Shown here in pieces: positions 870 to 39,888 of a DNA stretch of 64,000 nucleotides; position 1 is the stretch's first letter, and the number at the start of each line of letters is the position of its first letter. The stretch lies in contig JAUQPF010000051.1 in the NCBI GenBank assembly GCA_030550535.1, positions 2,974 through 66,973 of the forward strand, in the 5' to 3' direction. The position numbers and the translations under genes are program-made. The notes under the pieces are model-generated. The model saw only the letters and a list, made by a program, of their open reading frames with translations, searched no databases and had not been told where the DNA came from. Origin of the DNA: Candidatus Bipolaricaulota bacterium (lineage in GTDB: Bacteria > Bipolaricaulota > Bipolaricaulia > Bipolaricaulales > Bipolaricaulaceae).

Positions 870-909
870 CGGCCAGGATGGTACCCGGCTCCCCGCGTCC
901 AAAGAAAAA

Positions 910-960
910 CCCCCTCACCCTTTGTCCCTCTCCCCTGGGGAGAGGGTGGGGGTGAGGGGG
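910..960. repeat. REP-like nested palindrome, complete copy (CCCCCTCACCC-n5-CCCTCTCCCC-n1-GGGGAGAGGG-n3-GGGTGAGGGGG)
   Basis: Outer arms 910-920/950-960 and inner arms 926-935/937-946 are perfectly complementary. Lies between the stop of 969-1844 and the helicase start. Related copies at 14913, 20577, 20693 and 20805. Confidence 0.85.
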
Positions 961-968
961 CTTTGCGT

Positions 969-1844
969 TCAGTTAGAGAGCGCGAGCACGAAGGGGAAGG
1001 GCGCGAGGGTCGTGTCCCACTTGATGAGGAGGACGAAGAAGAGGGTGCCCGGCACAGGGGCATTGCCCCATTGGGTGAGGGGTTGATAGGTCTGGGGCCG
1101 GTCCAGGGACACGGAGATCCCGCCGCCGGGCCAGGGCGACCAGGCCATGGCCGTGTTCCAGAAGTTGGGAACCGGTACGACCCACAGCCACACGAAGGCG
1201 CCCGGTCGGTCGTAGGCCACGGACACGCGGAGCGATCCGCCCGTGGTGCTTGCCCATAGGGCCAGGGCGGCGAAACCGCCGGGCAGGGCACCGAGAAGGA
1301 TGGGGTCCTCGGCGTCGCCAAGCTTAGGCCGCTCTTGGGAGCCCTGGACGACCACCTGGGCACCTGCGGCCTGGAGGGCGCTGAGGAGCTGGGCGGGGCT
1401 CATCCCGGGCGTAAGGGGTAGCCGGGGCATCCCGGTGGGGAGGGGAACCTCGGGCATTGTGGGTGGCGTGGGCGGAGTTGGGCCCGGCGCCGCGGGGCTC
1501 GTGCTGATCGTGCCGCAGGCGAACTTCACGGTTTGCCCCATGGGCACCCGCTCCTCGATGGGCTGGCCCCCGGAGAAACCGCGGATCAGCACGTGGGTGG
1601 GCATCACCGCGAGCACCTGGCGCACGGTGTAGCTCTGCCCCTGCCGGATGAGGACTTGGAGGATCTGGAGGCCCACGGCCTGCTCCTCCCGCAGCCAGAC
1701 CACCTGGGTGAGCTGGAACCCCGCGGGACAGGCGTCGTTGGCGATGGTGGCGGAGACCTGAATCCCCGCGGTCTGGGCCAAGGCCGGCACGGCCAAGGCC
1801 ACCAAAAGAACGACCCACAGAACACTACGCGCTTTGCGCAACAT
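969..1844 (-). CDS. hypothetical exported protein (291 aa), two domains joined by a Pro-rich linker
   Basis: C-terminal part of ORF 969..2369. ATG at comp(1842-1844) is preceded by GGAGG (comp 1850-1854). Signal-peptide-like start MLRKARSVLWVVLLVALAVPALAQ. Linker PAAPGPTPPTPPTMPEVPLPTG. No family recognised. Confidence 0.6.
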   Translation of the reverse strand: MLRKARSVLWVVLLVALAVPALAQTAGIQVSATIANDACPAGFQLTQVVWLREEQAVGLQILQVLIRQGQSYTVRQVLAVMPTHVLIRGFSGGQPIEERVPMGQTVKFACGTISTSPAAPGPTPPTPPTMPEVPLPTGMPRLPLTPGMSPAQLLSALQAAGAQVVVQGSQERPKLGDAEDPILLGALPGGFAALALWASTTGGSLRVSVAYDRPGAFVWLWVVPVPNFWNTAMAWSPWPGGGISVSLDRPQTYQPLTQWGNAPVPGTLFFVLLIKWDTTLAPFPFVLALSN

Positions 1845-4048: not shown

Positions 4049-4849
4049 ATGCGCAAGCTTTTGGTCTTTGCGGTGGGGGTTGCCGTGGTGGGTTGGGCCG
4101 ACCCTGGGGAGCTCGTGCGGAAAGCTGAAGCGCTCCTTCCCCAGCGCTATCACCTCCCGGTTTTGGAGCAGGTGATCGGCCTTTACGAGGAGGCGCTGCG
4201 CCAGGCCCCCCACGACCGGGAGCTTCTCGTGCGCCTGGCTCAACATTGGTACGAGTGGGGCGTGCTCATGCCTGAGGGCCTGGAGGACCAGGGTTGGCGC
4301 AAGGCCGCGGACTACGCCTTTCGGGCCCTGGGGCTTTCCGGCCTGGACGAGGCCCTGCGGCTTTCCAACGAGGAGTTCCAGGCCTTCCTCAGGAATTGCG
4401 CGGACGGCCGGGCCCTCCTTTGGGCTGGGCACGGCTGGGGCCAGCTCCTCGGAAAAATGAACCCGTTCTCCGCGTTCTTCGCCCTCCCCAAGATCCGGGC
4501 CATCTACGAGCGGGCCATGGAGCTCGCGCCCGAGTACATGGCGGGTTCCGCCTTCCAGGCCTACGGCGCCCTCCTCGCCAACCTCTCCGACTACGGGATC
4601 CTCTTCGGCGTGAAGCTCTCCCAGGCCAAGCCCTACTTCGAGAAGGCCATAACGATCGACCCCACCTACCTCGATCACTACGTGGCCTACGCCAAGGAGT
4701 ACGCGGTGCGCGCGAAGGACCGTGCCCTTTTTGAGACGCTCTTGCGGCACGTGCTGGAGGCGCCCATCGGGGACTGGCCGTTTTGGAACGAGGTGGCCAA
4801 GGACCGGGCCGCCCGATTCCTCGCGGAGATCGACCGCTACTTCAGGTGA
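4049..4849 (+). CDS. TPR-like exported protein, TatT-family-like (tentative)
   Basis: ATG 4049 preceded by GGAGGA (4041-4046). Signal-like MRKLLVFAVGVAVVGWA. The pattern ...LLWAGHGWGQLL...YERAMELAPEY..GSAFQAYGALL...YFEKAITIDPTYL..YVAYAKEYA... resembles TRAP-associated TatT TPR proteins. The N-terminal 187 codons of the ORF-track entry are rejected. Confidence 0.55.
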   Translation: MRKLLVFAVGVAVVGWADPGELVRKAEALLPQRYHLPVLEQVIGLYEEALRQAPHDRELLVRLAQHWYEWGVLMPEGLEDQGWRKAADYAFRALGLSGLDEALRLSNEEFQAFLRNCADGRALLWAGHGWGQLLGKMNPFSAFFALPKIRAIYERAMELAPEYMAGSAFQAYGALLANLSDYGILFGVKLSQAKPYFEKAITIDPTYLDHYVAYAKEYAVRAKDRALFETLLRHVLEAPIGDWPFWNEVAKDRAARFLAEIDRYFR

Positions 4850-14811: not shown

Positions 14812-14912
14812 CCGCTCCTCACCCTCGGCCCCTCTCCCCTCCCCGGGGGGTTGGCGTTTCCGAGAAACCCGGACAAAAAGTCCATCTTCCAGGTTCAGGG
14901 AGCTTAAAAAAT

Positions 14913-14949
14913 CCTCTCCCCTGTGGGGAGAGGGAAAAGGGTTGAGGGG
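14913..14949. repeat. REP-like element, partial copy (inner hairpin plus right outer arm)
   Basis: CCTCTCCCC-TGT-GGGGAGAGG followed by AAAA-GGGTTGAGGGG. Sits between two convergent genes (stops at 14811 and 14960). Confidence 0.8.
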
Positions 14950-14959
14950 CCTTCCCCCT

Positions 14960-20576: not shown

Positions 20577-20600
20577 CCCTCTCCCCCAAGGGGGAGAGGG
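20577..20600. repeat. REP-like element, inner hairpin only
   Basis: CCCTCTCCCC-CAAG-GGGGAGAGGG. Confidence 0.8.
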
Positions 20601-20692
20601 CTTGTGAAAAAAGCGAAGGCCCCTTTCCTAGGAAACCAGCTTCTTCCCCTTCTTAAGGCTGACGGGCTGGACGAAACGAAATCGGTGTCGTT

Positions 20693-20733
20693 CCACCCTC
20701 TCCCCTTTTGGGGAGAGGGCACAGGGGTGAGGG
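20693..20733. repeat. REP-like element (inner hairpin plus right outer arm)
   Basis: CCACCCTCTCCCC-TTTT-GGGGAGAGGGC-ACA-GGGGTGAGGG. Confidence 0.85.
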
Positions 20734-36003: not shown

Positions 36004-37083
36004 ATGGTTCACGCGGAGGTGGACCTCCGGGCGATCCGCGCAAACCTCGAGCGCCTGCGGGATTGGCTCCCCAAACGCGTGGCCCTCATGTTCGTGGTCA
36101 AGGAGGACGCTTACGGGCACGGCCTTGGGCCCGTGGCGAGGATCGCCGCGGAAGTGGTGGACTGGTTTGGGGTGGCCCACGTGGAGGAGGCCCGGGCTTT
36201 GCGCGCGGCCGGCCTTTCCCACCCCATTTTCCTCATGATCCCCCCCGTGGGCGAGGAGCTCGTGGAGGCCATCCGTCAAGGTTTTCATATCCCGCTTGGG
36301 GACCTGGGCATGGTGGCGGAGGTGCGGGAGGCGGCGCGCCGGGCCGGCCGGAAAGCCTTGGTGCACTTGGAGATCGACACGGGGATGGGCCGCTTCGGCC
36401 TCCTTCCTGAGGAGGCCGAAAAGGCCTTGGCGCTTTTTGACCCCCAACACCTGGAGCTCGCGGGGATCTTCTCCCACCTTTCCTCGGCGTATGGGACGAC
36501 GCCCGAGGATCTGGAGTTCACCCGAGCGCAGGTATGGTGGTTCCGAAAGATCCTGCAGGAGTGGGAGGGGCGGGTGGAGGCCCCCTGGAAGCATTTGGCC
36601 AACTCCGCCGCGGTTTTGGCCTTCCATGAGGCCACGGCGCCGCCCCTGAACATGGTGCGGGTGGGCACTGCGGCCTACGGCTACCCTGAGGGGCCGGCGA
36701 AACCCCCTGTTCCCCTCAAACCCGCGGCCCGGGTATGGACGCGGATCGCCGCGGTGCGCGAGGTGCCGGCGGGTTGGCCCGTGGGCTACGGCCGCACCTT
36801 CGTCACGGAGAAGCCGGCGAGGCTCGCCATCCTCGCCGCGGGCTACAGCCATGGCCTTCGCCCCGAACTCCGCGACGTCCTCGTACGGGAGCGGCGCGCG
36901 CCCCTCGTGGGGAAGATCGCCATGGACACCGTGGCCTGTGACGTGACCGAGGTTTTTCGGGTGCATAGGGGGGATCCCGCGGTGCTGTTCGGGCCCGAGG
37001 TGGAACGGCCCGGTTGGGTTTGCCCTATATTGGTTCCCGTCCTTCTTTCCGCGCGGCGAAGTTTTGTGGGGGCTGAAAAATAA
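36004..37083 (+). CDS. alr: alanine racemase
   Basis: ...MFVVKEDAYGHG (PLP-lysine context), ...EIDTGMGRFG..., ...GYGRTF..., ...VGKIAMD... Confidence 0.88.
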   Translation: MVHAEVDLRAIRANLERLRDWLPKRVALMFVVKEDAYGHGLGPVARIAAEVVDWFGVAHVEEARALRAAGLSHPIFLMIPPVGEELVEAIRQGFHIPLGDLGMVAEVREAARRAGRKALVHLEIDTGMGRFGLLPEEAEKALALFDPQHLELAGIFSHLSSAYGTTPEDLEFTRAQVWWFRKILQEWEGRVEAPWKHLANSAAVLAFHEATAPPLNMVRVGTAAYGYPEGPAKPPVPLKPAARVWTRIAAVREVPAGWPVGYGRTFVTEKPARLAILAAGYSHGLRPELRDVLVRERRAPLVGKIAMDTVACDVTEVFRVHRGDPAVLFGPEVERPGWVCPILVPVLLSARRSFVGAEK

Positions 37084-37087
37084 AAAC

Positions 37088-37165
37088 TGGTACGCCCGGC
37101 AGGATTTGAACCTGCGACCTCTGGCTCCGGAGGCCAGCGCTCTGTCCGGGCTGAGCTACGGGCGC
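37088..37165 (-). tRNA. tRNA-Arg (anticodon CCG), CCA encoded
   Basis: Reverse complement GCGCCCGTAGCTCAGCCCGGACAGAGCGCTGGCCTCCGGAGCCAGAGGTCGCAGGTTCAAATCCTGCCGGGCGTACCA folds as a cloverleaf. Anticodon loop CTCCGGA. Confidence 0.93.
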
Positions 37166-37167
37166 TG

Positions 37168-37259
37168 CGGAGGGAGCGGGATTCGAACCCGCGGCCAGGG
37201 TTTTAAGCCCCGGCAACGGCTTAGCAAGCCGTCCTCTTCGGCCCCTCGAGCATCCCTCC
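37168..37259 (-). tRNA. tRNA-Ser (anticodon GCU), long variable arm
   Basis: Reverse complement GGAGGGATGCTCGAGGGGCCGAAGAGGACGGCTTGCTAAGCCGT... 3-bp D stem, anticodon loop TTGCTAA, 7-bp variable stem, T arm GCGGGTTCGAATCCCGC, acceptor GGAGGGA/TCCCTCC. Confidence 0.92.
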
Positions 37260-37267
37260 CACCCCGC

Positions 37268-37295
37268 ATTCTATGCGCTTGGGCCCGGGAGTCAA
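37268..37295 (-). promoter_or_regulatory. promoter of the tRNA-Ser/tRNA-Arg pair
   Basis: Minus strand TTGACT (comp 37290-37295), 16-nt spacer, TAGAAT (comp 37268-37273). The tRNA-Ser 5' end lies 9 nt downstream. Confidence 0.6.
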
Positions 37296-37317: not shown

Positions 37318-37346
37318 TGGACAAGGGGCGGGGAAGCTTGTACAAT
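37318..37346 (+). promoter_or_regulatory. orphan sigma-70-type promoter (drives the candidate sRNA)
   Basis: TGGACA (37318-37323), 17-nt spacer, TACAAT (37341-37346). Back-to-back with the tRNA promoter. Confidence 0.55.
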
Positions 37347-37352
37347 ACTCTT

Positions 37353-37438
37353 GCTTCATGGGCCTTTCCGCCTGAGACCCACCCCATTCCACCTCACGCC
37401 TCACCTCCCCCGGGCGGAAAGGCCCCTTTTCTTTTGTT
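37353..37438 (+). ncRNA. candidate ~85-nt small RNA: 13-bp stem closing a 40-nt C-rich loop, followed by a U-tract
   Basis: Predicted TSS ~37353. GGGCCTTTCCGCC (37360-37372) pairs perfectly with GGCGGAAAGGCCC (37413-37425). The loop is TGAGACCCACCCCATTCCACCTCACGCCTCACCTCCCCCG. Followed by CTTTTCTTTTGTT (37426-37438). Only a 5-codon ORF (MGLSA) fits inside. Confidence 0.45.
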
Positions 37439-38218
37439 CGGCATCGCGGGGCATCCCACCCAAGCCTCCTTGAACTTTTGGTTCGCCAACTGCCCGCTGT
37501 CCAACCTCAGAATCACAAGACAAAGCGTTGGCCAGCAGAGCCAGCGGGAACGGCGAAGGAACCCTGTGCGGCGACGGCCCCATCCTGGGCCTTAACCCGG
37601 CGGAAGGGCTCTGGCCTTGATGTTCACAGGGTTCGCAGGGGTTCCCTTTATTTCTCCGTAGACGGGCTCGAGGGGCAGGGGAATACCCACCGTTTCCTCT
37701 TCCCAGGTGGTTCCCGGGAGGTTTTGGACGGCGCGGATGGGGGCTAGGGGATCAGCGGACCTTGGGCCCTAAAACCTCACGATGTCCTTCACCCCGCCCT
37801 CCAGCGCCGCGGCCCTGGGATGGCTTGGTCCAAGCCAGAGCACGAAAGGGCGCCGTTAAGAGGGGCACAGGGGAAGGGGACACTCGGCCTCTTTGGGGCG
37901 TTCAGGGAGGATCTTGTCGGGGAAGAGAGGGTTCGGAAGGGCGCGCCGCGTACATCCATCCTCATGGCCTTGCCTACCTCAAAAACGGCAACGCTGATGA
38001 AAATCCTCGCGTTTTCCTACCGAGGCGATGCGTGCCACAGGTTAGCTCACTCTTTGGGGACCACTTCGAACAGGCCTACCACCCCAAGGTGGTCGGAAAC
38101 GGTGCAGCTTGTGATGTTACCCCAACGGTAGGGCGGAACCCTGGGATTTTCGGGTTACGCGCCACGGAAAGGAGCGCAAGCTGAAGGGGCTGCAAGCCCG
38201 GGTTTCCACGAGGAACGA

Positions 38219-38247
38219 TTGACAGGCGAGCGGACTTTGGGTATGAC
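38219..38247 (+). promoter_or_regulatory. promoter of nadE (leaderless-type)
   Basis: TTGACA (38219-38224), 17-nt spacer, TATGAC (38242-38247). GTG start 38254 is only 6 nt downstream, with no SD. Confidence 0.55.
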
Positions 38248-38253
38248 CATCTC

Positions 38254-39888
38254 GTGAAGATCGCAATTGGCCAGATCAACCCTAAAGTCGGCGATTTTTC
38301 GGAGAACCTCGGGAAGATTCGGGAGAGCGTGGCTTGGGCTCAGGAAGCGGGCGCGGATTTGGTGGTGTTCCCCGAGCTCGCCCTTCTGGGATATCCGCCG
38401 AGGGATCTTCTTTTGCGCCGAGGCTTTGTGGAGGCAGCGGAAGCCGCGTTTCAGGAGGTTTTAAAGGAGAGCACGAAGATGCCCATCGTGATCGGCCACA
38501 TTCAACCGGCTTCCCCCCAGCCAACCAACCGCGCCGATCCCTCCGCGAATTCTTGGCACCCCTACTTCCTCCACAACGCCGTTTTCCTTTTGGATGGTGG
38601 GGAAATCCTGGGCTTCCAGGCCAAGGTGCGTCTCCCTTCCTTCGACGTTTTCGAGGAAGAGCGCTATTTCGTTCCGGGAAAGCAATGCGAGGTGTTGAGT
38701 TGGCGGGGGCTGCGCTTGGGCCTCTCAGTCTGCGAGGATTTTTGGTACGAGGATGGCGTTCTTGCAGCCCAAAGCCAGGCCGGCGTCGACCTTCTTCTCA
38801 ACGTCTCCGCTTCCCCCTATTTCCGGGGCAAACCCTCCGTGCGGTGGCGGTTGGGACAGGCCTGGGCGGCCCAGGCCGGTGTTCCCCTCGTGTACGCGAA
38901 CTTGGTGGGTGCTCAAGACGAGCTCGTCTTTGATGGGCGTTCGTTCGTTGTGCGTCCGGATGGCGCTTTTCTTCTGGACTGTCCGGCGTTTCGGGAGGGG
39001 GTGTTCCTCGCGGATTTGGCAGGCGCGCCTTGCGCCACTCCCCGCGAGGCGGGGATTGCGGACGTGCACCGGGCCCTTGTCCTCGGGATCCGGGATTATT
39101 GTCAAAAGAACGGGATCCCCCGCGTCGTGATCGGGATTTCGGGAGGGGTGGATTCGGCGGTAGTGGCGGCGCTGGCTGTGGAGGCCTTGGGCAAGGAGAG
39201 CGTGATCGGGGCCTTCCTTCCCGGGCCGTACACGAGCGCGGTCTCTCGGGAATGCGCCCAGGCTTTAGCAGAGAACTTGGGCATCAAGCTTTTGGTCCTC
39301 TCCATCAACGCCGCGTTTGAGGAGGCCAAAAGAGCTTTGGGGGCGGCCATCCCCGTGGAGGGCGTGGTGGCGGAGAACCTCCAGGCTCGCCTGCGTGGCC
39401 TCTTCCTCATGGCCCTGGCCAACGCCCTTGGAGCCATCGTCCTTTGCCCGGGGAACAAGGCGGAGATCGCCATGGGCTACAACACGCTCTATGGGGATAC
39501 AGTGGGCGCGTTGGCCCCCATCGGCGACCTCCTCAAACACGAGGTGTACGAGCTCGCGCGTTTTCTGAACGAAAAAGCCGGCCATGCCCTTATCCCTGAA
39601 GAGATCCTGAGGCGTCCACCGTCCGCGGAGCTTCGCCCGGACCAGAAGGACGAGGATGATCTTCCGCCTTATTCCATTCTGGATCCCTTGCTTAAGGCCC
39701 TCGTGGAGGCGAACGCCTCGCCTGAGGAGCTGGCCCAGCGTTTCGAAGCGGCTTTGGTGCGAGAGGTTTTGCGACGCCTCCGCCGTGCCGAATACAAACG
39801 TCGTCAGCTTCCGCTGGTGCTCAAGGTAAGCCCCAAGGCGTTCGGACTGGGCTGGCGTTTCCCCGTGACCTCGGGTTTCCTAGACTAG
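38254..39888 (+). CDS. nadE: glutamine-dependent NAD+ synthetase
   Basis: N-terminal CN-hydrolase domain (...DLVVFPELALLGYPP...) plus C-terminal synthetase with the PP-loop GISGGVDSAV. 544 aa. Confidence 0.92.
   Translation: MKIAIGQINPKVGDFSENLGKIRESVAWAQEAGADLVVFPELALLGYPPRDLLLRRGFVEAAEAAFQEVLKESTKMPIVIGHIQPASPQPTNRADPSANSWHPYFLHNAVFLLDGGEILGFQAKVRLPSFDVFEEERYFVPGKQCEVLSWRGLRLGLSVCEDFWYEDGVLAAQSQAGVDLLLNVSASPYFRGKPSVRWRLGQAWAAQAGVPLVYANLVGAQDELVFDGRSFVVRPDGAFLLDCPAFREGVFLADLAGAPCATPREAGIADVHRALVLGIRDYCQKNGIPRVVIGISGGVDSAVVAALAVEALGKESVIGAFLPGPYTSAVSRECAQALAENLGIKLLVLSINAAFEEAKRALGAAIPVEGVVAENLQARLRGLFLMALANALGAIVLCPGNKAEIAMGYNTLYGDTVGALAPIGDLLKHEVYELARFLNEKAGHALIPEEILRRPPSAELRPDQKDEDDLPPYSILDPLLKALVEANASPEELAQRFEAALVREVLRRLRRAEYKRRQLPLVLKVSPKAFGLGWRFPVTSGFLD

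What the first reader, a model, noticed from the sequence alone, without database searches (positions are those of the whole stretch)
37318..37438. Orphan promoter plus terminator predicts an ~85-nt sRNA with an anti-Shine-Dalgarno-like C-rich loop
TGGACA-n17-TACAAT (37318-37346) is followed, 13 nt after the -10, by a perfect 13-bp stem (37360-37372 / 37413-37425) and then CTTTTCTTTTGTT. This is the layout of a self-contained transcription unit. It can encode only MGLSA. The 40-nt loop has almost no G and contains CCACCUCACGCCUCACCUCCCCC. UCACCUCC is the sequence I recall at the 16S rRNA 3' end (the anti-SD), and it is complementary to the GGAGGTGA-type ribosome-binding sites seen throughout this window (for example upstream of rpsO, the ABC binding protein and the 1013-aa gene). 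It could be a translational repressor sRNA or an SD sponge. It is divergent from the tRNA-Ser/Arg promoter.
Basis: partly seen in the sequence, partly recalled or inferred. Interest (0 to 1): 0.65.

Follow-up and report, generated by a model that had tools for sequence, protein, structure and literature searches.

The report
Conserved small RNA with anti-Shine-Dalgarno loop
This is a real, expressed small RNA gene of about 77 nt, absent from Rfam and conserved in the uncultured phylum Bipolaricaulota. Its large unpaired loop carries the same 8-nt sequence the ribosome uses to recognise mRNAs, so it most likely blocks ribosome-binding sites, although no target has been found.

Summary
TGGACA-17-TACAAT sits 13 nt before a stem that is 13 bp perfect and 15 bp as folded. 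The stem closes a 36-nt G-poor loop and is followed by a T-rich tail.

It is not a REP-like repeat. It occurs once in the window and once per related locus. I found 18 homologues (16 distinct sequences) in Bipolaricaulota genomes and metagenomes, in at least four genomic contexts.

Promoter hexamers and their spacing are conserved while the spacer and flanks diverge. The helix keeps pairing in 99% of cells and has 5 compensatory pairs. GCCUCACCUCCC is invariant in all 18.

Metatranscriptomes show the RNA. Stranded reads come only from the + strand. One 107-nt circular unitig gives a 77-nt unit that starts 6-8 nt after the -10 and ends inside the U tract. Rfam 15 has no match.

Best reading: an independent trans-acting sRNA that pairs with Shine-Dalgarno regions, working like the actinobacterial 6C/B11 and staphylococcal RsaE RNAs. 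No target was identified, so the mechanism remains an inference.

In three relatives (L002, L007, L008) the U tract is missing. In L007 and L008 the element may serve as the nadE leader.

The parts
37318..37323 (+). -35 hexamer TGGACA
   Evidence: In the 16 aligned close sequences T, G, A and C at hexamer positions 1, 3, 4 and 5 are invariant, while the 17-nt spacer diverges.
37341..37346 (+). -10 hexamer TACAAT
   Evidence: The TAnnAT positions are invariant in the 16 aligned sequences. The divergent homologues have TATAAT or TATACT.
37352..37354 (+). Inferred transcription start, most likely G37353
   Evidence: Transferred from homologue L113. There the head-to-tail joint in a metatranscriptome contig puts the 5' end 6-8 nt after the -10. 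It was not mapped in the window's own strain.
37360..37374 (+). 5' arm of the 15-bp helix
   Evidence: fold. Searches show 99-100% of cells paired and 5 pairs with changes on both sides.
37375..37410 (+). 36-nt unpaired C-rich loop
   Evidence: no internal structure predicted. (nearly invariant among the close homologues).
37398..37409 (+). GCCTCACCTCCC, the block invariant in all 18 homologues. It contains TCACCTCC (37401-37408), which is identical to the canonical anti-SD.
   Evidence: alignment A3. One search shows that CCTCACCTCC (up to 1 mismatch, either strand; one orientation gives GGAGGTGAGG-type sites) occurs 4-fold more often in the window than in shuffles.
37411..37425 (+). 3' arm of the helix
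37426..37438 (+). T-rich terminator tail CTTTTCTTTTGTT
   Evidence: A T-rich tail is present in 15 of 18 homologues. The 3' end maps inside the tract in L113.
37268..37295 (-). Divergent promoter of tRNA-Ser(GCT)/tRNA-Arg(CCG). This is context, not part of the RNA.
38219..38247 (+). nadE's own promoter, TTGACA-17-TATGAC. It ends 6 nt before the GTG start at 38254, so nadE does not depend on the sRNA promoter. This is context.
   Evidence: The same layout is seen in L001, L002, L088, L093, L102 and L121.

Best explanation
Window 37353 to about 37430 (+) is an independent gene for a small non-coding RNA of about 77 nt. It belongs to a family not present in Rfam.

A near-consensus sigma-70-type promoter drives the transcript. 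After a 5-7-nt leader the RNA folds into one 15-bp G+C-rich helix. The helix acts as the terminator stem and as a clamp that displays a 36-nt G-poor, unstructured loop.

The loop carries the invariant GCCUCACCUCCC, which includes the anti-SD octamer UCACCUCC. The inferred mechanism is that this loop pairs in trans with G-rich Shine-Dalgarno regions (GGGAGGUGAGGC-like) of one or more mRNAs and so competes with the 30S subunit to lower translation.

Shown: the gene, its structure, its conservation, its strand and its approximate ends. Inferred: trans pairing with SD regions and the effect on translation.
For: - Anatomy and statistics.
- Single copy in the window and one copy per related locus. 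None in viral contigs.
- 18 homologues (16 distinct) in Bipolaricaulota.
- Promoter hexamers, the 17-nt spacing and the roughly 11-14-nt distance to the stem (13 nt in the window) are conserved while spacer and flanks diverge.
- Helix: 99.2% of cells paired and 5 pairs changed on both sides. 0 of 500 shuffles reach this. The covariation score is 0.208, against at most 0.108 for slid registers.
- The genomic context changes: divergent from tRNA-Ser, upstream of tRNA-Leu, upstream of nadE, or other. The next gene has its own promoter in the window and in L002, L088, L093, L102 and L121 (nadE), and an apparent one before tRNA-Leu in the L095 group.
- Words of the element occur in nine metatranscriptome assemblies from sediment, oil-facility and hot-spring samples, and it was laid on contigs of seven of them.
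- All 10 stranded reads in X11 have the orientation of a + strand RNA. The co-laid + strand tRNA-Leu calibrates this.
- The X5 contig is 107 nt = 77 + 30. That fits a circular k=31 unitig, assuming Logan's usual k. It shows no branch into the flanks, and its joint defines L113:4350-4426 (+0 to 2). This is 6-8 nt after the -10 and 2-4 U into the tract.
- GCCUCACCUCCC is the only long block invariant in the three divergent members as well.
- The 10-mer CCTCACCTCC (up to 1 mismatch, either strand; one orientation gives GGAGGTGAGG-type SD sites) occurs 44 times in the window against 10.5 expected.
- The hairpin is predicted stable at 70-80 C. A 12-nt G+C duplex is still -14.4 kcal/mol at 70 C, against -6.5 for 8 nt.
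- Published precedent: chaperone-independent C-rich-loop pairing in high-GC bacteria (PMC6486639).
Against: - No target was identified. The duplex scans of the window and the 12-mer scan of about 296 kb of Bipolaricaulota sequence gave only the element itself, coding-sequence artefacts and generic SD matches.
- A sequence complementary to nearly every strong SD is a poor discriminator of targets.
- The whole 64-nt stem-loop is nearly invariant among relatives whose NadE is only 65-79% identical. That is more than a seed needs and hints at a protein or ribosomal partner.
- A 36-nt loop is atypical for an intrinsic terminator.
- L002, L007 and L008 lack a U tract.
- The ends were mapped in one homologue from one contig, not in this strain.
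- Contig depth is a weak measure of expression.
- The 19-nt search pattern biases the apparent conservation of that part of the loop among the metagenome hits.
Confidence: 0.55

Rival explanations
1. Decoy or sponge for a protein or for the ribosome, rather than an antisense regulator. The C-rich unstructured loop would mimic the 16S rRNA 3' tail, or a Rho or S1 binding site. It would titrate a factor that recognises such RNA, for example bS1, bS21, Rho or a 16S 3'-end maturation enzyme.
For: Among the 15 close homologues the full 36-40-nt loop is nearly invariant while promoter spacers and flanks are scrambled. That fits a fixed macromolecular partner better than a short seed. The loop has 23 C and 4 G in 40 nt, which is the composition that Rho and S1 are known to prefer (general knowledge). 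The promoter is near consensus, with no obvious regulator site.
Against: In the divergent members L006-L008 much of the loop does change and only GCCUCACCUCCC and CCAU..CC persist. That is the pattern expected of a seed. There is no conserved neighbouring protein gene. Nothing here tests binding.
Confidence: 0.2
2. Cis-acting 5' leader of nadE. Transcription from this promoter would read into nadE, and the hairpin or its anti-SD loop would control nadE expression.
For: The element lies upstream of nadE on the same strand in the window and in L002, L006, L007, L008, L088, L093, L102 and L121. L002, L007 and L008 have no U tract. In L008 the only promoter-like site upstream of nadE is the element's own, and in L007 no site at all passes the scan. 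In both, nadE has an SD.
Against: In the window, 815 nt separate the two. nadE has its own TTGACA-17-TATGAC promoter ending 6 nt before the start codon, so its mRNA is leaderless and has no SD to sequester. The same holds in L002, L088, L093, L102 and L121. In other lineages the element precedes tRNA-Leu or unrelated genes, or stays with the tRNA-Ser locus while nadE is elsewhere. The 77-nt circular unitig shows no read-through k-mers. In L007 and L008 the loop and the nadE SD can form only 5-6 bp, by my manual inspection of the sequences; no tool scored this pairing.
Confidence: 0.12
3. Not a gene: a chance promoter-like site next to a REP-like palindrome or a stray terminator.
For: The window does contain a palindrome family (CCCTCTCCCC...GGGGAGAGGG) and many hairpins.
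Against: The element is single-copy. It is conserved together with its promoter in at least four contexts. It shows covariation, strand-specific reads and defined ends. No upstream + strand gene could use it as a terminator, because minus-strand tRNA genes intervene.
Confidence: 0.03

Closest known systems
6C / B11 sRNA of Actinobacteria (Rfam RF01066; PMC6486639, PMC5014011)
   Same: Both are short, strongly promoted and highly conserved sRNAs of high-GC bacteria. In both, unpaired C-rich hairpin loops are the binding surface for G-rich mRNA regions. G-C-rich pairing is thought to be enough without Hfq or ProQ.
   Different: 6C has two C-rich stem-loops with small loops, whereas this RNA has one 15-bp helix with a single 36-nt loop. 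There is no sequence or covariance-model similarity. The phyla differ. The motif here is the full anti-SD octamer plus flanks, not just a run of C.
RsaE/RoxS and the C-rich hairpins of S. aureus RNAIII (UCCC-motif sRNAs of Firmicutes)
   Same: All use C-rich loop motifs complementary to the SD to block ribosome binding.
   Different: Those RNAs carry several short UCCC motifs in small loops and unpaired regions, and their targets are known. No Rfam match was found here, and the targets here are unknown.
3' tail of 16S rRNA (the anti-Shine-Dalgarno sequence)
   Same: It shares the octamer UCACCUCC, so both can pair with the same GGAGGUGA sites.
   Different: Here the octamer sits in a hairpin loop of a 77-nt RNA and is flanked by GCC and CCC(C). 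It therefore prefers GGGGAGGUGAGGC over the AAGGAGGUGAUC that the canonical tail prefers. This genome's own 16S end was not available.
Intrinsic (Rho-independent) terminator
   Same: It has a G+C-rich stem followed by a U tract, and the 3' end falls inside the tract.
   Different: The loop is 36 nt rather than 3-8 nt, and it is the most conserved part. The hairpin is essentially the whole gene product, not an appendage to one.

Membership tests
Independent bacterial sRNA gene (own promoter and own terminator) | Sigma-70-type -35/-10 at the correct spacing, conserved across relatives | tested here: met
   The hexamers and the 17-nt spacing are conserved while the spacer sequence is not.
Independent bacterial sRNA gene (own promoter and own terminator) | A discrete transcript with ends at the predicted start site and terminator, from the predicted strand | tested here: met
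   The 77-nt unit in the X5 circular unitig was mapped on L113. 10 of 10 X11 reads have the + strand RNA orientation, calibrated by tRNA-Leu. This was not done on the window's own strain, and no Northern blot exists.
Independent bacterial sRNA gene (own promoter and own terminator) | Independence from neighbouring genes | tested here: met
   At least four contexts were seen. The downstream gene has its own promoter in the window and in L002, L088, L093, L102 and L121. The exception is L007/L008.
Structured RNA family | A helix supported by compensatory changes | tested here: met
   5 of 15 pairs change on both sides and 99.2% of cells are paired. 0 of 500 shuffles reach this, and slid registers score lower. 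Caveat: alignment A3 was fitted to the model. The MAFFT alignment A2 alone gives 1 such pair.
SD-targeting C-rich-loop sRNAs (working like 6C, RsaE, RNAIII) | An unpaired C-rich motif complementary to the SD, conserved | tested here: met
   GCCUCACCUCCC is invariant in 18 of 18 and lies in a loop with no predicted structure.
SD-targeting C-rich-loop sRNAs (working like 6C, RsaE, RNAIII) | Identified mRNA target(s) with a translational effect | tested here: inconclusive
   Searches found no specific or conserved target in the window plus about 296 kb of related loci. Whole genomes and experiments are needed.
6C RNA (RF01066), RsaE (RF01820) or any other Rfam 15 family | A match to the family covariance model | tested here: not met
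   There is no + strand match on 37353-37438 even at E <= 10. Only a chance minus-strand snoU82P hit overlaps it.
REP-like / repeated palindromic element | Many dispersed copies per genome | tested here: not met
   One copy in 64 kb. One copy per related locus. One contig per metagenome sample among the 34 hits.
Canonical intrinsic terminator | A short loop (3-8 nt) between the G+C-rich arms | tested here: not met
   The loop is 36-40 nt. The consensus terminator scan does not list it.
Canonical intrinsic terminator | A U tract directly after the stem, with the 3' end inside it | tested here: met
   (15 of 18 homologues). (3' end after 2-4 U in L113). The tract is absent in L002, L007 and L008.
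Riboswitch / cis leader of nadE | An obligatory position in the 5' UTR of the regulated gene | tested here: not met
   nadE is leaderless here and the element occurs away from nadE in several lineages. It remains possible in L007/L008.
Anti-SD mimic | Identity to this organism's own 16S rRNA 3' end | not testable with these tools
   There is no rRNA gene in the window or in the held loci. UCACCUCC as the bacterial anti-SD is general knowledge. Enrichment of GGAGGTGAGG-type sites is indirect support.

The most novel reading that the evidence does not exclude
The RNA is not an ordinary target-specific riboregulator but a global anti-SD mimic. As an abundant free copy of the ribosome's mRNA-recognition sequence, it would either compete with 30S subunits for all strong SD sites or act as a decoy for a factor that reads the 16S 3' tail. 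It might exist partly as a circular or end-joined molecule, as the head-to-tail joint in X5 hints. This would explain why among the 15 close homologues, spanning several Bipolaricaulota lineages, the whole loop is frozen, not just a seed.
Probability: 0.15. Interest if true: 0.8.

Novelty: new member of a known kind. Interest (0 to 1): 0.55.

Why it matters
I found no sRNA described for Bipolaricaulota (Acetothermia), a largely uncultured candidate phylum known mainly from metagenome-assembled genomes from hot springs, oil reservoirs and sediments. A full-text search found no relevant paper, and Rfam has no matching family.

This gives one concrete RNA that is conserved and detected in metatranscriptomes. 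It has a simple architecture and an obvious testable surface.

It extends the C-rich loop versus G-rich SD mode of regulation, known from Firmicutes and Actinobacteria, to a deep-branching and probably thermophilic lineage. There a long G+C seed held on a 15-bp clamp makes physical sense.

If it proves to be a general anti-SD competitor rather than a specific regulator, that would be a new way of setting global translation.

The covariance model built here can be used to annotate the family in MAGs.

Tried and rejected
1. REP or repeat family. Searches for the stem and for inverted repeats show a single copy. Rejected.
2. Known RNA family. Rfam at gathering thresholds and at E <= 10 gives nothing.
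3. Coding. MGLSA is not conserved. The minus-strand ORFs through the element are open-frame artefacts. The gap ORFs have no Pfam hit.
4. Phage or mobile origin. There are no matches in viral contigs.
5. Target prediction.
   - A whole-window duplex scan gives many long imperfect G-rich matches of -43 to -55 kcal/mol with no clear signal.
   - The scan around guessed start codons is unreliable because starts were not properly called. The GGAGG-anchored start survey was likewise contaminated by internal sites.
   - The 12-mer scan of about 296 kb found a recurrent hit that is only the antisense of tyrS coding sequence.
   - Contigs L089 and L109, which share 22 nt with the loop, have unrelated, very G+C-rich stress-protein-like ORFs (my guess: haloarchaeal), and I take the match as chance.
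6. Raw-read end mapping.
   - X9 and X10 gave no reads.
   - The size-fractionated X14 gave none.
   - X11 gave 10 reads whose flanks do not match the window, and no loose-end consensus was returned.
7. An exact-protein look-up for the window's nadE found nothing on record.
8. The tRNA-Leu/fabH loci of three further Bipolaricaulota genomes lack the element there. This says nothing about the rest of those genomes.
9. A broader model, R2, found no more members in the held loci.

Full report
**What is in the sequence**

- TGGACA lies at 37318-37323, followed by a 17-nt spacer and TACAAT at 37341-37346.
- Thirteen nt later, GGGCCTTTCCGCC (37360-37372) is the perfect complement of GGCGGAAAGGCCC (37413-37425).
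- CTTTTCTTTTGTT follows at 37426-37438.

Folding extends the helix to 15 bp (37360-37374 / 37411-37425) and leaves a 36-nt loop with no predicted internal structure. The energy is -29.9 kcal/mol, z = -4.5, and 0 of 200 shuffles fold as well. The 40 nt between the 13-bp arms are A7 C23 G4 U6.

The consensus scan finds two promoter-like sites in 5 kb, against 0.4 expected. One is this site. The other is the divergent TTGACT-16-TAGAAT (37295..37268, minus strand), which serves tRNA-Ser(GCT) at 37167-37259 and tRNA-Arg(CCG) at 37088-37165.

Rfam 15 has no family matching the + strand here, even at E <= 10. The stem is single-copy in the window. The element is therefore not a member of the CCCTCTCCCC/GGGGAGAGGG palindrome family that the window also contains.

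**Surroundings**

Upstream on the + strand is alanine racemase (36004-37083), followed by the two minus-strand tRNA genes. No + strand gene could therefore use the hairpin as its terminator.

Downstream lie 815 nt with no convincing ORF and no Pfam hit, and then glutamine-dependent NAD+ synthetase, nadE (38254-39888). nadE has its own TTGACA-17-TATGAC promoter (38219-38247), which ends 6 nt before the GTG start. Its mRNA is therefore leaderless.

**Organism and relatives**

The closest nadE and alr relatives are all from Candidatus Bipolaricaulota (Acetothermia) MAGs.

Homologues of the element were found in three ways.
- By synteny. L002 has alr, tRNA-Arg, tRNA-Ser, the element and nadE. L081 and L082, from MAG SKYB41 and another MAG, have alr, the tRNAs and the element.
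- By a 19-nt loop pattern searched in metagenome contigs. Of 34 hits, 15 are true homologues with stem and promoter. One of these, L096, is a sequence duplicate of L002. The rest are chance matches or heptad repeats.
- By a covariance model. This found three divergent members upstream of nadE: L006, L007 and L008, at 51-54 bits.

In total there are 18 sequences in the final alignment, 16 of them distinct. There is one copy per locus and none in viral contigs.

The group with the tRNA-Leu context is also Bipolaricaulota, judged by its FabH relatives.

**Pattern of conservation**

Among 16 close sequences the -35 positions (T-GAC-) and the -10 positions (TA---T) are invariant, and the spacing is fixed at 17 nt. 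The distance from the -10 to the stem stays at about 11-14 nt. The spacer and everything outside the hairpin have diverged. This is the signature of selection on a promoter plus a transcript.

The helix behaves as follows.
- On the MAFFT alignment of the close members, all 195 cells pair. The four variable pairs change only in pair-preserving ways: G-C, G-U and A-U at pair 2, C-G versus U-A at pair 6, and two C-G to U-G changes.
- With the divergent members added, 99.2% of cells pair and 5 of 15 pairs change on both sides. 0 of 500 column shuffles reach this. The covariation score is 0.208, against at most 0.108 for slid registers.
- Caveat: that second alignment was fitted to the model.

In the loop, the close members are nearly identical throughout. 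That is partly forced by my 19-nt search pattern, but the other 20 or so loop positions are also invariant. In L006-L008 much of the loop changes. What survives in all 18 is GCCUCACCUCCC, plus a CCAU..CC block. The anti-SD-like block is therefore the best-conserved part of the molecule.

**Independence from neighbours**

The element occurs in several contexts.
- Divergent from tRNA-Ser(GCT): the window, L098, L081 and L002.
- About 50 nt upstream of tRNA-Leu(GAG), with an apparent promoter in between: the seven L095/L099-type loci.
- Directly upstream of a leaderless nadE that has its own promoter: L088, L093, L102 and L121.
- Elsewhere: L090 and L111.

In assembly ERZ1685331 the alr-tRNA locus lacks the element (L085, coverage 19.99), while another contig of equal coverage carries it (L111, coverage 19.57). 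This suggests the gene has moved within a lineage.

Three further genomes lack it upstream of tRNA-Leu, and L084 lacks it after tRNA-Ser. These absences apply to the locus only, not to the genome.

**Expression**

Words of the element occur in nine metatranscriptome assemblies from sediment, an oil production facility and hot springs. It was laid on contigs of seven of them: X1, X2, X3, X5, X6, X7 and X8.
- In X1, which contains the window's own strain, summed contig depth is 520 over 37362-37385 against 84 in the upstream flank. Contig depth is only a rough guide.
- In raw stranded reads of X11, all 10 reads on the element belong to pairs whose first mate lies on the minus strand. Reads on the + strand tRNA-Leu of L113 show the same orientation. 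This calibrates the library and puts the RNA on the + strand. The X11 variant has the window's U-A at pair 6.
- The most informative item is an X5 contig of 107 nt (depth 39.6). It matches L113 perfectly and 'goes back 77' from 4426 to 4350, with an ambiguity of 2.
  - 107 = 77 + 30. I read this as a closed cycle in a k=31 de Bruijn graph, taking Logan's usual word size. No k-mers lead into the genomic flanks, and there is one dominant head-to-tail junction.
  - On L113 the -10 is at 4339-4344, the helix at 4357-4371 / 4408-4422, and the U tract at 4425-4429.
  - The 5' end is therefore 6-8 nt after the -10, and the 3' end falls after 2-4 U.
  - Transferred to the window, this gives a start at 37352-37354 (G37353 is likely) and an end near 37428-37431, about 77-78 nt.
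- Why the ends are joined is unknown. It could be in-vivo circularisation, ligation during library construction or template switching.

**Mechanism**

Shown: a conserved, independently promoted and terminated small RNA consisting of a clamp helix and a displayed single-stranded loop.

Inferred: the loop pairs with G-rich SD regions.

Arguments for this inference:
- The invariant block contains UCACCUCC, the canonical anti-SD (general knowledge; this organism's own 16S was not available).
- The 10-mer CCTCACCTCC (up to 1 mismatch, either strand), which in one orientation gives GGAGGTGAGG-type sites, is 4-fold enriched in the window (44 against 10.5).
- The loop is G-poor and therefore cannot fold on itself.
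- A 12-nt G+C duplex remains at -14.4 kcal/mol at 70 C, whereas an 8-mer is marginal at -6.5. The helix stays folded at -15.6 kcal/mol. This suits organisms from hot habitats.
- Chaperone-independent pairing of C-rich loops with mRNAs is established for the actinobacterial 6C sRNA (PMC6486639).

Arguments against it, or left open:
- No target was found.
- Complementarity to nearly every strong SD gives little specificity.
- The frozen full loop among the 15 close homologues suggests an additional partner.

**Rival explanations**

- A protein or ribosome-factor decoy (0.2) would fit the whole-loop invariance and the C-rich, Rho/S1-like composition. It is untested.
- A nadE leader (0.12) is contradicted in the window and in most lineages. 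It is plausible in L007 and L008, which have no U tract. In L008 the only promoter-like site before nadE is the element's own, and in L007 none passes the scan. By my manual inspection of those sequences, the loop can form only 5-6 bp with the nadE SD.
- A chance or REP-type element (0.03) is contradicted by the copy number, covariation, strand-specific reads and defined ends.

**Comparison with known RNAs**

The RNA works like 6C/B11, RsaE/RoxS and the C-rich hairpins of RNAIII. It is not a member of any of these families. It has no covariance-model match, a different architecture (one helix with one very large loop) and a different phylum.

It resembles an intrinsic terminator in stem and tail but not in loop size.

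I file it as a new member of a known kind: a new sRNA family of the C-rich-loop, SD-complementary type.

**Verdict**

- Observation: confirmed.
- Interpretation: partly supported. The gene is supported; the function is not tested.
- Interest: 0.55.
- Confidence: about 0.9 that this is a genuine conserved, expressed small RNA gene; 0.55 for the SD-pairing mechanism.

Noticed in passing
window 38219-38256; also L001, L002, L088, L093, L102, L121: nadE appears to be a leaderless mRNA. A TTGACA-17-TATGAC/TATCAC promoter ends 1-6 nt before the GTG/ATG start (6 nt in the window), and this layout is conserved across several Bipolaricaulota lineages. L007 and L008 instead have an SD-led nadE.
   Followed up: partly
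window 37440-38253: An 815-nt stretch has no convincing ORF, no Pfam hit and no Rfam hit. It is absent from L002, L088 and L121, where nadE follows the element within 40-90 nt. Against the near-identical strain L098, 37634-38201 is 95.6% identical, 37478-37633 is replaced, and the match ends at 38201, before nadE. An X1 contig shows a similar replacement ('skips 180, 107 letters between'). It could be a decayed insertion or an unrecognised RNA.
   Followed up: partly
L113:4350-4426 (run X5); equivalent to window about 37352-37431: The metatranscriptome unitig is circular (107 = 77 + 30 nt), so 3' and 5' ends of the RNA are joined head to tail in some molecules. The cause could be a circular RNA, a ligation concatemer or template switching. 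This was not resolved.
   Followed up: partly
window 37361-37412 (run X1): Two low-depth short contigs (80 and 83 nt, depth 7-9) carry a joint from 37412 back to 37361 with one extra T. This does not fit the 77-nt unit and is unexplained. It may be a reverse-transcription artefact at the hairpin.
   Followed up: no
window 37259-37295 (minus strand): The tRNA-Ser promoter's -10 ends 8 nt before the mature tRNA 5' end. The primary transcript would therefore have a 5' leader of only about 0-2 nt.
   Followed up: no
window 897-973; 14814-14950; 20577-20719: A palindrome family is built on CCCTCTCCCC...GGGGAGAGGG. At 897-973 it is nested inside a second inverted repeat (CCCCCTCACCC/GGGTGAGGGGG) flanked by A-rich and T-rich runs, which looks like a bidirectional terminator. 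The sRNA is not part of it. The CM scores 897-973 at about 20 bits on both strands because of the hairpin shape only.
   Followed up: partly
L007:1907-2040; L008:2021-2205: In these divergent relatives the hairpin has no U tract. In L008 the element's own promoter is the only promoter-like site before nadE, and in L007 no site at all passes the scan. The element may therefore act as the nadE 5' leader there. This suggests an evolutionary link between a leader and a free-standing sRNA.
   Followed up: partly
L099:3764-5974 (minus strand), and likewise in L095, L097, L113, L120, L121: A large beta-helix-type lipoprotein gene (signal peptide ...LATLFGCSA) starts about 40 nt from the element's -35 and runs divergently. 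Mechanical ORF calling extends its frame through the element and the tRNA, which would mis-annotate the sRNA as coding.
   Followed up: no
L085 versus L111 (assembly ERZ1685331): Two contigs have the same coverage. The alr-tRNA locus lacks the element and another contig carries it, so the gene has apparently relocated within this lineage.
   Followed up: partly
L002:3714-3813: A run of 100 N lies directly upstream of the element's -35. Contig L096 starts exactly at the -35, so this is a scaffold gap and not deliberate masking.
   Followed up: yes
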